From UHGV virus genome UHGV-0228494: a stretch of 45,812 nucleotides of DNA. One strand, given 5' to 3'. Of this stretch, positions 34,594 to 37,178 are shown piece after piece. The stretch is from a virus. Numbering within the stretch: the stretch's first letter is position 1; every line of letters starts with the position of its first letter. The position numbers were made by a program, and so were the translations under genes. Under the pieces are notes generated by a model that saw only the letters and a list, made by a program, of their open reading frames with translations, did not search any database and had not been told where the DNA came from.

Positions 34594-34920
34594 TCATAAC
34601 ACCGTCGGACAACGCAAATCGTAAATCAGCACGGAAACAGAAAACGGCAGCTCCCCCTGAAGCAGTTCTTCCCGCTCCGCAAGATCCGGATTCCGGTACA
34701 GCATCCCGGTCAGTCGCATGGCAGCCCCCTTCATCCGGGTTAATGCCTCGCCCGGGATCAGTTCACCGTCCTCACGGATCACTTTATCCCGGCTGCCCTG
34801 AATGTAGGCCAGCAGCACGGCGGTAGCCTGACGAACCTTGTCCATCAGCATGTCATCATCCGCGTCATGGTCGACACGCAGATGTGCCTTGATCTCTTCC
34901 AGTGTCAGTAATGCCGTCAT
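34594..34920 (-). CDS. gp6-like head-tail connector protein
   Basis: 108 aa, MTALLTLEEIKAHLRVDHDADDDMLMDKV..., typical N-terminus of this family. Confidence 0.7.
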   Translation of the reverse strand: MTALLTLEEIKAHLRVDHDADDDMLMDKVRQATAVLLAYIQGSRDKVIREDGELIPGEALTRMKGAAMRLTGMLYRNPDLAEREELLQGELPFSVSVLIYDLRCPTVL

Positions 34921-37178
34921 TTTCCGCCTCCTGCATCCCGCCCACGTTTTGCAGCCAGGGTCCAGGCTGATGAATGAGCTTCTCCGGGTTTATCTTCGGT
35001 CATACTGTTGCAGTGCCACAGCGAGCCCCCCCACGTCACCGTATCGCCGGGGTGGTAGGTTTCACCGGCTCTGAACACACCGCGGTAGAGCATCACCGGC
35101 AGGGAAAATGTTTTTTCCGTACGCTGGCCACTGCTCTGCCGGACCACCACAGAGAACAACCGCTCACCCGTCATGCTGACGTCAATATCCGCCACCCCGT
35201 CAACCAGGCATTCCCATCCCCGCATCCCGTGCGTTTTTTCATACGCCCGCCAGAGTCCGCCCTGGTGTGTGGCATACGTGCCCCGGGGAAAGGATTTTTG
35301 ATCGTCAATGGCGGGGAGTATTTCCAGAGCCGTGGCATCACGCCCGTCCTGCGGAGCCGGCAGGGCACTCACCGCATCCAGAACCGCCTTCTGCAGAACA
35401 TCCGGATCGTAGTCACGACCATCACGCGGAACATGAATATGGCTTACCGCCTCCTTCACCATCTGTTCAAGCATCGGACGCACATCATCCGGGGTGAGAC
35501 TTTTACCGTCCGCCGGCTGCGGAATATTTGCGACCGCATCATTCACCGCCTGCTGCAGTACATCCGGATCATAATCACGACCATCACGCGGTACCGGAAT
35601 GGCCCCCACAGCGTCATCCACCATCGCCTGCAGAACCGGACGCACCTCATCCACCGTCACATGCTTCTGTAATACCGCCGACAGGGAAGTCAGTTTCTCT
35701 TCAAACGCTTGTGCCTGCGAGGCCATCTTCCCCTCAAATGTGCGCTGTAAATCCGCCAGCACTGTGGAGAATTCTTCTCCCAGTGCACGAATAATGGACA
35801 GTTCCCGTTCCGTCATTTTCTCAGTATCCCCCCTGAACATCGCTTTCACCGCATCATGCTCTGTTTCACTGATTGCCTTATTACCGTCAGATGCGCCGTC
35901 AGGCAGCTGTGATGAAACTGTTTTCCCGGCAGACGCGAACGGATCCTCACGGGCATCACGACGGGACAGCGCCTCCAGACTGTAGTTCTGCTGCTGAAGA
36001 TACAGTGCATCACCGCCGGCCAGGGGCGGCAGGTTCTCCCGTTTACGGGCCTCATTGGGCGTGAGAAGCGTATTTTTCACCGCATCCCCCAGCGTTTTCA
36101 TGCGCCGCTCACTGTCCATTCTCAGCAGCGTGGTGACATCAAATTCTGTACTCTCGTTTTCCCCCGTTTCCAGCGCCTCATCCAGTAACAGTTCAATGGA
36201 CTCAATCAGCGTCTGCAGGCACTGGGAATAATACTGCTGCTCCAGCGCCTCCACGTTGTCACTGGAAGGCGGTTGTCCCACGCCAATCTTGTAGGCCGGG
36301 ACACGGAACACCGAACAGACAATTTCAGCGGTCATCTTCAGTTGTTCCACCGTCTGCGCATCCACAGGTGAAAACGTCGTGGGGTTGTATTTTGCCCCGT
36401 TGCTCAGAATGGCCGTTTTCCCCGCATTTTCGCCTGTATACCCGCTGTCCCAGTTGCTCTTCAGTTTTTTCGCATTTTCTTCCGTAATACTGCCGGGGAT
36501 CTCAATCACCCCGGACGGCCTGCCGCCATTTCTGAAAAAAGACGTCGAATTTTCCTGAATATGATGCCCCTGCGTGGCCGCCAGCCCGGCGGCATACACC
36601 GGCGGCAATCCTATAAGCGGATGAAAAAAACAGTTAAACCGGTCGTGGATCACTTCCCGGGCAGGCACCGTCACCGCCTCCGTGATCCCGCAGTTCCGGT
36701 CCGGCGTGATGCGGTAGAACACCTCGCCGTCATCCGCCACCAGAGGTTCAACCCGGCTCCAGTCCAGAATACGCAGTTCTTTGATCTGCCCCCGGGCATT
36801 ACGGATTTTCAGCACCACCGTATTGCCATGACGCAGTTTGGCGTTCAGCCACAGTTCAAAAAACTGGATGCGGTTCTGCTGGGCGTTGGGACGACGACAG
36901 AGGCGGGCAATATCCCCCCGGCGCGTTTCCCTGCGTATCCCATGCGCATCCGTCTGCATAAGACGCAGCCGCATTTTGGCGATATCCTGGGATATCAGCG
37001 AAATACATGCAAACACCGCATGAAAGGAGAGGACGGCTTCAGGATCGGCTTTCACGCCCTGCTGCCAGGCGCCGGAAAAGGGCTCAGCCACCGCCTGAAA
37101 CAGGCTGGTCCAGCCCGCCTCTCTTACGTCACGTCCTGATTTCTGGTTTTTTCGGGTTCGCCGTAAAAGGTTCCACAT
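34917..37178 (-). CDS. Portal protein (HK97-type portal domain, aa ~1-410) with ~340-aa C-terminal extension containing tandem repeats
   Basis: 753 aa; portal-like motifs FFRNGGRPSGVIEIPG and LLRMDSERRMK; C-terminal part has 2.5 copies of a ~53-aa repeat (VPRDGRDYDPDVLQ.AV.DAV) and a Trp/Cys-containing terminal domain. Confidence 0.75.
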   Translation of the reverse strand: MWNLLRRTRKNQKSGRDVREAGWTSLFQAVAEPFSGAWQQGVKADPEAVLSFHAVFACISLISQDIAKMRLRLMQTDAHGIRRETRRGDIARLCRRPNAQQNRIQFFELWLNAKLRHGNTVVLKIRNARGQIKELRILDWSRVEPLVADDGEVFYRITPDRNCGITEAVTVPAREVIHDRFNCFFHPLIGLPPVYAAGLAATQGHHIQENSTSFFRNGGRPSGVIEIPGSITEENAKKLKSNWDSGYTGENAGKTAILSNGAKYNPTTFSPVDAQTVEQLKMTAEIVCSVFRVPAYKIGVGQPPSSDNVEALEQQYYSQCLQTLIESIELLLDEALETGENESTEFDVTTLLRMDSERRMKTLGDAVKNTLLTPNEARKRENLPPLAGGDALYLQQQNYSLEALSRRDAREDPFASAGKTVSSQLPDGASDGNKAISETEHDAVKAMFRGDTEKMTERELSIIRALGEEFSTVLADLQRTFEGKMASQAQAFEEKLTSLSAVLQKHVTVDEVRPVLQAMVDDAVGAIPVPRDGRDYDPDVLQQAVNDAVANIPQPADGKSLTPDDVRPMLEQMVKEAVSHIHVPRDGRDYDPDVLQKAVLDAVSALPAPQDGRDATALEILPAIDDQKSFPRGTYATHQGGLWRAYEKTHGMRGWECLVDGVADIDVSMTGERLFSVVVRQSSGQRTEKTFSLPVMLYRGVFRAGETYHPGDTVTWGGSLWHCNSMTEDKPGEAHSSAWTLAAKRGRDAGGGK

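What the first reader, a model, noticed from the sequence alone, without database searches (positions are those of the whole stretch)
34920..35948. Portal protein has a ~340-aa C-terminal extension with tandem ~53-aa repeats
After the portal domain (aa ~1-410) the protein continues with a coiled-coil segment, then about 2.5 tandem copies of a unit of ~53 aa (VRPxLxxMVxxAVxxIxVPRDGRDYDPDVLQxAV), then a Trp/Cys-containing terminal domain (...GETYHPGDTVTWGGSLWHCNSMTEDKPGEAHSSAW). The repeat is visible in the DNA as a ~159-bp period (compare 35400-35432 with 35558-35590). Repeat number could vary between strains.
Basis: seen in the sequence. Interest (0 to 1): 0.55.

Follow-up and report, generated by a model that had tools for sequence, protein, structure and literature searches.

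The report
Portal fused to neighbouring fibre-like gene
The long "tail" on this E. coli prophage portal protein is really the next gene, an uncharacterised fibre-like protein with a sugar-binding-type tip, joined to the portal by one extra G in a run of Gs; this fused form is common and genuine, and the unfused original form is routinely mislabelled as a broken gene.

Summary
The 753-aa ORF (window 37178..34917, minus strand) is real. It has an HK97-type portal domain (aa ~45-390), a long helix, two exact 54-aa (162-nt) tandem units and a ~140-aa beta-rich end domain.

The "extension" is not part of the portal family. In about 40 loci from other genera (Klebsiella to Pseudomonas and Variovorax), the portal is 443-484 aa. 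The extension there is a separate gene ("X", PHROG 1289). It overlaps the portal stop by 4-17 nt and is followed by the gp6-like connector gene.

In E. coli the two states differ by one base in a G run (window 35828-35833):
- **G5** gives two genes, with the portal ending in the cross-genus conserved ...RG(I/L)LxK*.
- **G6**, as in this window, gives an in-frame fusion.

The fusion is not a sequencing error. The exact protein occurs on 512 contigs, and among 60 loci I counted 25 G6 and 35 G5. Both states occur on near-identical backgrounds. Unit number varies from 1 to 7.

RefSeq labels the ancestral G5 state a "frameshifted" pseudogene. The function of X is inferred only: a portal-vertex accessory protein with a CBM5/12-like tip. 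Interest is moderate.

The parts
35949..37178 (-). HK97-family portal domain (aa 1-410 of the ORF)
   Evidence: Pfam PF04860 covers aa 54-382 at E 5e-81. TIGR01537 covers aa 45-388 at 349 bits against a cut-off of 112. PDB portals 9lbn_H and 8cez_A align to aa 43-420.
35817..35948 (-). Portal C-terminal tail (aa 411-454). Its last four residues (DTEK) are frameshifted relative to the ancestral ...RG(I/L)LxK* ending.
   Evidence: Alignment of the junction in six loci. Portal tails KAMLRGLLTK, KAMIRGFLTK and similar are found in about 25 enterobacterial loci.
35828..35833 (-). G6 homopolymer (C6 on the + strand). This is the single-base insertion site that fuses portal and gene X. G5 in relatives gives two genes.
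   Evidence: Among 60 loci, 35 are G5 and 25 are G6, with no G4 or G7. L012 (G6) and L013 (G5) are 99.4% identical over 8.4 kb with a single gap.
35813..35816 (-). Relic ATGA gene junction. ATG (Met455) is the conserved start codon of gene X. The TGA, out of frame here, is the portal stop codon in G5 alleles and other genera.
   Evidence: Standalone X proteins start M(N/T)EREL at exactly this position in Klebsiella, Cronobacter, Pantoea, Kosakonia, Enterobacter and others.
35670..35810 (-). N-terminal long helix of X (ORF aa 457-503), a coiled-coil-like putative anchor or oligomerisation segment
   Evidence: The AlphaFold2 model has a helix at X residues 3-49 with pLDDT 65-84. The motif ERELSxIxxLGEEF is conserved.
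35505..35666 (-). 54-aa repeat unit 1 (aa 505-558): KHVTVDEVRPVLQAMVDDAVGAIPVPRDGRDYDPDVLQQAVNDAVANIPQPADG
   Evidence: In the model it forms helix-loop-helix-loop.
35343..35504 (-). 54-aa repeat unit 2 (aa 559-612): KSLTPDDVRPMLEQMVKEAVSHIHVPRDGRDYDPDVLQKAVLDAVSALPAPQDG
   Evidence: 49% amino-acid identity at offset 54 against 1-7% at offsets 52, 53, 55 and 56.
34920..35342 (-). Conserved C-terminal beta-rich domain of X (aa 613-753) with CBM5/12-like modules (GGLWRAYEKT..GWEC; YxPGDTVTWGGSLWHC)
34594..34920 (-). gp6-like head-tail connector gene (108 aa). It overlaps the end of X by 4 nt.
   Evidence: The X/connector 4-nt overlap is present in almost all of the loci examined.
37390..39327 (-). 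Prohead protease-scaffold-major capsid fusion gene (645 aa), upstream of the portal gene
   Evidence: The Klebsiella homologue carries Peptidase_S78 plus Phage_capsid.

Best explanation
**Shown.** The window carries a gene-fusion allele. The ancestral arrangement is portal (about 450 aa, ending ...AM(L/F)RG(L/I)LxK-stop), then gene X, then the gp6-like connector. The X start codon overlaps the portal stop (ATGA). In this E. coli prophage lineage the portal's 3' end contains a G5 run 11 nt upstream of the X start. Gain of one G (G6, window 35828-35833) moves the ribosome into the X frame four codons before the portal stop. The result is a single 753-aa portal-X polypeptide. The change is a real, heritable and common allele. 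It has toggled more than once, because G5 and G6 occur on near-identical haplotypes.

X is modular:
- an N-terminal ~47-aa helix;
- a spacer of 54-aa units, each two helix-plus-'IPxPxDG(K/R)' loop modules, whose number changes by unit-length (162-nt) steps, from 1 to 7 in E. coli and 2 here;
- a strongly conserved ~140-aa beta-domain built from CBM5/12-like modules.

**Inferred.**
- X is a structural accessory protein of the portal vertex. This rests on its strict synteny and its translational coupling between the portal and connector genes.
- Its helix anchors or oligomerises it, the repeats set its reach, and the terminal domain binds a glycan (cell-surface polysaccharide or peptidoglycan).
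- In the G6 state every portal subunit carries X covalently at its C-terminus. In known HK97-type portals that end lies on the capsid-interior (crown) side. Free X could then arise only from internal initiation at Met455.
- The fused state is tolerated or near-neutral rather than a designed feature.

The confidence given applies to the shown part (origin and reality of the fusion). The inferred functional part I hold at about 0.5.
For: **Split arrangement outside E. coli.**
- A separate X gene is found in Klebsiella, Cronobacter and Pantoea.
- It is also separate in about 40 further loci spanning Enterobacterales, Pseudomonas, Marinobacter, Delftia, Variovorax and Acidovorax. None of these is fused.
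- Standalone X proteins begin at the same Met.

**Which state is ancestral.**
- The portal tail RG(L/I)LxK is conserved across genera only in the G5 reading frame.
- Portals related to this clade are uniformly about 440-500 aa.

**The single-base difference.**
- The window has TTCAGGGGGGATAC. Phage JLK-2012 and Stx2_EH1910 have TTCAGGGGGATAC.

**The allele is real.**
- The exact protein is on 512 contigs and the 859-aa version on 806.
- The 100%-identical junction is the best match in 41 of 60 evenly sampled rows from 1073 complete E. coli records.
- The G5 haplotype of L005 is matched at >=99% in 344 records.
- Among 60 loci, 35 are G5 and 25 are G6.

**Toggling.**
- The identical 130-nt haplotype carries G6 in 15 loci and G5 in 2.
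- L012 and L013 differ by one gap over 8.4 kb.

**Viability of the fused form.** Named phages 2851, YYZ-2008 and Stx2a_WGPS6 carry G6.

**Architecture of X.** (AlphaFold2; fold searches; repeat).

**Size of the family.** 5519 representatives match, almost all 190-500 aa with the domain at the C-terminus.
Against: - No experimental data on X or on the fused protein were found. The literature searches returned nothing specific.
- The location of X in the virion is unknown. Its closest structural matches are distal tips of external phage fibres. That fits poorly with a protein tethered to the capsid-interior end of the portal. The fused form may therefore disable X rather than use it.
- The full-length X model is of low confidence (pLDDT 64).
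- Many of the counted genomes are clonal (O157:H7, ST131), so the allele frequencies are not independent events.
- Prophage genes can persist without selection for virion function.
Confidence: 0.85

Rival explanations
1. The fused ORF is a homopolymer sequencing or assembly error in this one sequence.
For: The fusion depends on a single base in a G run. Some deposited relatives clearly carry homopolymer errors: vB_EcoS_phi330 and 569R3 have several split genes.
Against: The identical 753-aa protein is on 512 contigs and the 859-aa fused version on 806. The junction is 100% identical in hundreds of complete genomes from different laboratories and platforms, and in the finished genome of phage 2851.
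Confidence: 0.02
2. The long fused portal is the intact ancestral gene, and the two-ORF (G5) versions are frameshifted pseudogenes. This is the view taken by RefSeq/PGAP and by several depositors.
For: PGAP labels the G5 state 'phage portal protein, frameshifted'. Depositors wrote 'portal protein (pseudogene)'. Asadulghani et al. 2009 scored the portal function as defective in the Sakai prophages Sp6, Sp9 and Sp12, which have this head-gene organisation (PMC2669165).
Against: - All of the roughly 40 non-E. coli loci have two genes, a conserved X start codon and a portal tail conserved in the G5 frame.
- Related portals are about 450 aa and solved HK97-type portals are 424-431 aa.
- Standalone X dominates among 5519 family representatives.
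- Most deposited Stx1a and Stx2c phages are G5 (73 of 83).
Confidence: 0.04
3. The G run is a programmed recoding site. Ribosomal -1 frameshifting on G5, or transcriptional slippage, would make both a short portal and a sub-stoichiometric portal-X fusion. G6 would be a 'locked-on' mutant.
For: - In the G5 state the X frame is -1 relative to the portal.
- A P-site tRNA-Gly could re-pair on G_GGG, and the next codon, AUA, is rare in E. coli (reading of the sequence).
- Only G5 and G6 were seen among 60 loci, never G4 or G7.
Against: - There is no canonical X_XXY_YYZ heptamer in frame.
- The G run is absent in Klebsiella and Cronobacter (CGAGGATTG, AGAGGATTG).
- X lies in the +1 frame in the Pseudomonas, Haliea, Marinobacter and Morganella relatives and in the -1 frame elsewhere (overlaps of 14, 17, 4, 10 and 16 nt).
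- There is no stable structure 5-9 nt downstream. The only significant hairpin starts about 36 nt away and is not conserved.
- G5/G6 is short for RNA-polymerase slippage.
Confidence: 0.05
4. The fusion is a loss-of-function or neutral lesion. X is normally an external neck or head fibre. Fusing it to the interior-facing portal C-terminus traps it inside the capsid or misplaces it. The allele persists because X is dispensable, because co-resident prophages complement it, or because prophage virion genes are under weak selection.
For: - The closest folds are distal tips of external fibres.
- E. coli genomes carry a median of 2-3 and up to 7-18 related copies, which could complement each other.
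- G5 and G6 frequencies are near parity, as expected for near-neutral slippage.
- Prophage-prophage complementation of head defects is documented in O157 (PMC2669165).
Against: - G4 and G7 were not seen among 60 loci. Each would also give two genes, but with an altered portal tail, so their absence suggests selection still acts on this junction.
- ST131-type genomes carry a single copy, and it is G6 (rows with 1 place).
- Fused alleles keep X fully open and vary in unit number (2-7) just like split alleles.
Confidence: 0.3

Closest known systems
HK97-family portal proteins (Pfam PF04860 / TIGR01537; HK97 gp3, PDB 8cez)
   Same: The N-terminal ~410 aa match above curated thresholds and align with solved portals end to end.
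   Different: Solved relatives and about 120 database relatives are 424-500 aa. Nothing in that family corresponds to aa 455-753.
Portal-adjacent minor head proteins (SPP1 gp7 / Mu gpF, Pfam Phage_Mu_F), including 'portal and MuF-like fusion protein' annotations and MuF polymorphic toxins (PMC5576092)
   Same: The gene lies immediately after the portal gene. The build is modular with a variable C-terminal module. It occasionally fuses to the portal. The existence of portal-MuF fusions is from my own knowledge of SEA-PHAGES annotation and was not tested here.
   Different: No Phage_Mu_F match appears in Pfam scans of the fused protein or of standalone X. X is a helix plus helix-loop repeats plus a CBM-like beta-domain. 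This is an analogy of position only.
CBM5/12 chitin-binding modules at the tips of phage fibre proteins (e.g. collagen-like 'ChiC_BD' proteins in BFVD; Streptomyces ChiC ChBD 2d49; Serratia ChiB)
   Different: The sequence score is below Pfam's gathering threshold. Here there are two such modules flanking a beta-sheet in one 140-aa domain. The protein is encoded in the head-neck module, not the tail-fibre module. Binding is untested.
P22 portal C-terminal barrel (own knowledge)
   Same: It is a portal polypeptide that continues past the crown as a long helix projecting into the capsid.
   Different: In P22 this is an intrinsic part of the portal family. Here the helix belongs to a separate gene product, and it is followed by repeats and a globular domain.
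Homopolymer-tract contingency (phase-variable) loci
   Same: A single-base gain or loss in a G run switches between two protein architectures, and both states are seen on near-identical backgrounds.
   Different: The tract is only 5-6 nt, so the switching rate is probably low. No evidence of adaptive switching was found.

Membership tests
HK97-family phage portal (PF04860 / TIGR01537) | Profile match above the curated threshold over the whole portal model | tested here: met
   PF04860 scores 272.8 bits (cut-off 39.1) over model positions 2-321 of 321. TIGR01537 scores 349.6 bits (cut-off 112) over positions 2-343 of 343.
HK97-family phage portal (PF04860 / TIGR01537) | Protein length and domain set typical of the family (about 400-500 aa, nothing beyond the crown) | tested here: not met
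   The ORF is 753 aa. Relatives are 424-500 aa. The excess is a fused neighbouring gene.
Gene X family (PHROG 1289; C-terminal part of PHROG 2271) | Conserved C-terminal ~140-aa domain, preceded by helix-loop repeats and an N-terminal helix | tested here: met
   phrog_1289 matches at E 1.9e-155. 5519 representatives match the end domain. Distant members hit the same PHROG.
Gene X family (PHROG 1289; C-terminal part of PHROG 2271) | Encoded as a separate gene between the portal and gp6-like connector genes, overlapping both | tested here: not met
   In the window it is fused in frame to the portal through G6. The connector overlap is retained. It is separate in all non-E. coli loci.
CBM5/12 carbohydrate-binding module (PF02839) | Pfam match at or above the gathering score | tested here: not met
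   19.5 bits against 26.2 for the window protein. Homologues score 18-25 bits, all below threshold.
CBM5/12 carbohydrate-binding module (PF02839) | CBM5/12 fold | tested here: inconclusive
CBM5/12 carbohydrate-binding module (PF02839) | Binds chitin, cellulose or another glycan | not testable with these tools
   This needs a binding assay.
MuF / SPP1 gp7 minor head protein (PF04233) | Phage_Mu_F profile match | tested here: not met
   No such hit appears at E<=1 to 10 in Pfam scans of the fused protein or of standalone X.
Programmed -1 ribosomal frameshift site | In-frame slippery heptamer, a downstream stimulator at 5-9 nt, and conservation in relatives | tested here: not met
   There is no X_XXY_YYZ heptamer. 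The G run is absent in Klebsiella and Cronobacter. The frame relation varies. No suitably placed structure exists.
Phase-variable homopolymer locus | Tract length varies between otherwise near-identical sequences | tested here: met
   The same 130-nt haplotype occurs with G6 (15 loci) and G5 (2 loci). L012 and L013 are 99.4% identical with a single gap.
Phase-variable homopolymer locus | High-frequency reversible switching within a population | not testable with these tools
   This needs deep sequencing of single lysates or cultures. A G5/G6 tract is shorter than typical contingency tracts.

The most novel reading that the evidence does not exclude
The G5/G6 tract is a functional two-state switch in a phage structural module. 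In one state X is made as a free, translationally coupled portal-vertex fibre or ejection protein. In the other state all twelve portal subunits carry it covalently. This would change virion properties such as host or mucus binding, DNA retention or ejection, and stability. Selection would keep only these two tract lengths. More broadly, X would define a large, unstudied class of portal-associated proteins with adjustable length (about 5500 clusters at 50% identity).
Probability: 0.15. Interest if true: 0.65.

Novelty: new variant of a known kind. Interest (0 to 1): 0.42.

Why it matters
- **Annotation.** Hundreds of E. coli genomes, including O157:H7 Stx1a, Stx2a and Stx2c prophages, have the ancestral two-gene state labelled as a frameshifted or pseudogene portal. 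Gene X is labelled 'portal protein' or 'gp6-like connector' by transfer from the fused form. This can lead to intact Stx phages being scored as defective.
- **Biology.** A widespread, strictly portal-adjacent gene family with a variable-length spacer and a glycan-binding-type tip has no described function. The natural fusion argues that its N-terminus can sit at the portal C-terminus, which gives a testable hypothesis for where it lies in the virion.
- **Experiment.** Natural G5 and G6 alleles, and 1-7-unit length variants, are ready-made material for testing what the protein does.

Tried and rejected
- Tandem Repeats Finder at minimum score 30 did not report the 162-nt array. The repeat had to be shown with the repeat finder and an offset scan.
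- Sequence searches of X against the PDB gave only sub-significant hits to CBM-like stretches.
- Pfam and NCBIfam have no family for X. The hits to TetR_C_35, FliG_N, Spidroin_N and similar are below threshold and are repeat or composition noise.
- The first AlphaFold2 model, of whole X, was of low confidence (pLDDT 64). Its Foldseek result was informative only locally.
- I looked for an independent second portal-X fusion. P0148 (1237 aa, about 25 short repeats) is the only one. A search with its junction found only ~450-aa portals and no sibling. It may be an error, and I do not rely on it.
- The programmed-frameshift idea was tested and not supported.
- Literature searches on portal extensions, phage 2851, frameshifts in Stx phages, portal-MuF fusions and neck fibres found nothing on this protein.
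- The PDB 9lbn lead gave no information on the phage concerned.
- vB_EcoS_phi330 was dropped as evidence that fused-allele phages are viable, because its record has many split genes.
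Full report
**The object.** The window has one open reading frame of 753 aa on the minus strand, 37178..34917.
- Its first ~390-410 aa are an HK97-family portal. Pfam PF04860 covers aa 54-382 at E 5e-81. TIGR01537 covers aa 45-388.
- The nearest solved portals, 9lbn_H (431 aa) and HK97 8cez (424 aa), align only to aa ~43-420.
- The window is 100% identical here to E. coli AVS0543 (locus L001). There the gene order is TerS, TerL, protease-capsid fusion, a 73-aa ORF, portal, gp6-like connector, head closure, gp10-like, tail genes.

**Checking the repeat.**
- An offset scan of 35330-35700 gives 59% DNA identity at offset 162, against 19-37% at every other offset from 150 to 171.
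- At protein level, offset 54 gives 49% identity against 1-7% at neighbouring offsets.
- The units are aa 505-558 and aa 559-612. Each consists of two helix-loop sub-units of 25 and 29 aa built around IPxPxDG(K/R).
- There are two full units, not about 2.5.
- Tandem Repeats Finder missed the array. The repeat finder reported 2 copies of 120 nt at 76% identity, spaced 162 nt apart.

**The extension is another gene.** In phage JLK-2012 the same region is annotated as two CDS of 454 and 407 aa overlapping by 4 nt.
- Aligning the junction shows a single difference that matters. The window has TTCAGGGGGGATAC (G6) and JLK-2012 and Stx2_EH1910 have TTCAGGGGGATAC (G5).
- With G5 the portal reads ...AMFRGILRK-stop, and the next gene starts at ATGA with MTERELSIIRALGEEF...
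- With G6 the frame runs on as ...AMFRGDTEK-MTEREL..., giving the fused ORF.
- A protein search with the 299-aa extension returned standalone proteins of 245-463 aa. They came from Klebsiella, Cronobacter, Kosakonia, Enterobacter, Pantoea, Shigella and E. coli, and all start at the same Met.
- Their loci show the same order: TerL, protease-MCP, portal (447-452 aa), X, 108-aa connector, with 4-nt overlaps on both sides of X.
- The portal tails there read AMLRGLLAK*, AMLRGLLTK* and SMLRGLLKK*. These are homologous to the E. coli G5 reading and not to the G6 reading.

I extended this to 44 loci from IMG/VR and from one-genome-per-species contigs.
- The genera include Atlantibacter, Buttiauxella, Citrobacter, Phytobacter, Morganella, Proteus, Pseudomonas, Marinobacter, Haliea, Delftia, Variovorax, Acidovorax and Pseudoduganella.
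- Every locus with the junction present has a separate X directly after a 443-484-aa portal, overlapping it by 4-17 nt. None is fused.
- About 120 database relatives of this portal clade are about 440-500 aa.

The two-gene state is therefore ancestral. The window's ORF is a derived fusion made by a +1 G.

**Is the fusion real?** Yes.
- The exact 753-aa protein is on 512 contigs (named from O25b:H4-ST131 among others). The 859-aa four-unit version (phage 2851) is on 806 contigs.
- A 111-nt query across the junction finds 1073 complete E. coli records. In an even sample of 60 rows, 41 are 100% identical (G6) and 15 span 110 nt (G5).
- The G5 haplotype of Stx2_EH1910 is matched at >=99% in 344 records.
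- In deposited phage genomes 10 of 83 are G6 (2851, YYZ-2008, Stx2a_WGPS6 and others) and 73 are G5 (most Stx1a and Stx2c phages, 1717).
- Among 60 E. coli-type loci that I could read through the junction, 35 are G5 and 25 are G6, with no G4 or G7.
- The identical 130-nt flanking haplotype occurs with G6 (15 loci) and G5 (2 loci), and G6 occurs on at least eight haplotypes.
- L012 (G6) and L013 (G5), both with seven units, are 99.4% identical over 8.4 kb with one gap.
- The tract has therefore changed length repeatedly, or the alleles have been shuffled by recombination.

**Copy number.** X lengths fall on 191 + 54n aa with n = 1-7. The mode is 3-4 in both allele classes, and the window's n = 2 is at the low end.

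**What X looks like.**
- AlphaFold2 on the whole of X is of low confidence (pLDDT 64). It consistently gives a 47-residue N-terminal helix, four helices separated by 12-residue loops, and a beta-rich end.
- The end domain alone, with 61 diverse homologues, models at pLDDT 92.
- Against BFVD the matches are CBM5/12-bearing, often collagen-like, phage fibre proteins.
- Pfam CBM_5_12 is sub-threshold (19.5 against 26.2 bits).
- The end domain is a very large family. It has 5519 representatives (50% clusters) at E<=1e-3 and 354 at E<=1e-30. Nearly all are 190-500 aa with the domain at the C-terminus.
- PHROGs files these as phrog_1289 'portal protein'. That name appears to have been inherited from the E. 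coli fusion.
- NCBIfam and Pfam have no model for X.
- One other portal-X fusion turned up (P0148, 1237 aa, about 25 short repeats). No sibling was found, so I treat it as unverified.

**Mechanism: what is shown and what is inferred.**
- Shown: the fusion arises from a one-base gain in a G5 tract four codons before the portal stop. Both states are common. X is modular, with a unit-number polymorphism.
- Inferred from invariant synteny and overlapping stop-start codons on both sides: X is a structural partner of the portal-connector assembly.
- Inferred from fold: its tip binds a glycan.
- Inferred from solved HK97-type portals, whose C-terminus is in the crown facing the capsid interior (established knowledge): in the G6 state twelve copies of X are tethered on the inside.
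  - That is compatible with an SPP1 gp7/MuF-like or P22-barrel-like internal role.
  - It is awkward if X is an external neck fibre. In that case G6 would be a tolerated loss of function.
  - I cannot decide between these. I give roughly equal weight to 'tolerated or neutral' and 'functional in both states'.
- The purine block at the tract (GGGGG in E. coli and Pantoea, GAGGA in Klebsiella and Cronobacter) lies 11 nt before the X start in all four genera. It may double as the ribosome-binding site of X. This is a suggestion only.

**Programmed recoding was considered and not supported.**
- There is no canonical slippery heptamer.
- The tract is not conserved outside E. coli and Pantoea.
- X lies in the -1 frame in some lineages and the +1 frame in others.
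- The only significant RNA hairpin begins about 36 nt downstream and is not conserved.

**Annotation consequence.**
- PGAP labels the G5 state as a single 'phage portal protein, frameshifted' pseudogene, and depositors wrote 'portal protein (pseudogene)'.
- Asadulghani et al. 2009 scored the portal function 'D' (defective) for Sakai prophages Sp6, Sp9 and Sp12. These belong to the group with this head-gene organisation. The authors nevertheless found that Sp9 DNA was packaged and that Sp6 was transferred (PMC2669165).
- I did not verify which tract length each Sakai prophage carries. The comparative data here suggest that a split portal/X is not in itself a defect.

**Verdict.** The finding is a common natural gene fusion between the portal and an uncharacterised, widespread portal-adjacent fibre-like protein, created at a short G tract. 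It is a new variant of known kinds of event (homopolymer-mediated gene fusion; a portal fused to a neighbouring head gene), and not a new kind of system. Interest is moderate.

Noticed in passing
window 21455-25976, junction at 23641/23642: Two tail-tip J genes converge head-on. A lambda-like morphogenesis cluster on the + strand (6691-23647) ends in the first ~730 codons of a J gene. This prophage's J on the - strand (25976 downwards) also stops there. The two J segments are 77% identical as an inverted repeat. Collinearity with E. coli AVS0543 ends exactly at 23642. No complete E. coli genome covers more than about half of a 601-nt query across the junction. It is either a mis-join in the assembly or an unusual rearrangement.
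   Followed up: partly
L120 (NZ_AP018488.1, O157:H7 PV15-279) 1208-3792; also phage records: RefSeq/PGAP annotates the ancestral two-gene (G5) state as one 'phage portal protein, frameshifted' pseudogene. Standalone X proteins are named 'phage portal protein', 'gp6-like head-tail connector protein' or 'Carbohydrate binding domain'.
   Followed up: partly
P0148 (1237 aa, metagenomic representative): A second portal-X fusion with about 25 copies of a ~27-aa LPxPEPLPDIxxMVxxAV unit before the same end domain. No sibling was found, so it may be a frameshift error.
   Followed up: partly
window 35748-35792 (minus strand), inside the 5' part of X: An RNA hairpin that is significantly stable in the window allele (-26.6 kcal/mol over 80 nt, z -3.8). 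It is weaker in Stx2_EH1910 (z -1.5) and absent in Klebsiella.
   Followed up: no
window 37390-39327 (minus strand): Prohead protease, scaffold-like coiled coil and major capsid protein are encoded as one 645-aa gene placed upstream of the portal gene. The Klebsiella homologue has Peptidase_S78 plus Phage_capsid. This order (capsid before portal) is conserved across all X-bearing loci.
   Followed up: no
window 3694-4067 and 42970-43346: An inverted repeat of ~370 nt at 82% identity between the two ends of the window. These are presumably homologous late-region genes of the two prophages.
   Followed up: no
window 32667-33383 (minus strand): The major tail protein carries a C-terminal Ig-like segment (…GGTPPYKYAWKKDGQPVDG…). 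The JLK-2012 homologue is annotated 'immunoglobulin domain-containing protein'.
   Followed up: no
L121 (vB_EcoS_phi330, PV189401.1): This deposited 'complete genome' has several structural genes split into pieces (X, and the gp10-like gene). This suggests homopolymer sequencing errors, so it should not be used as evidence for allele states.
   Followed up: no
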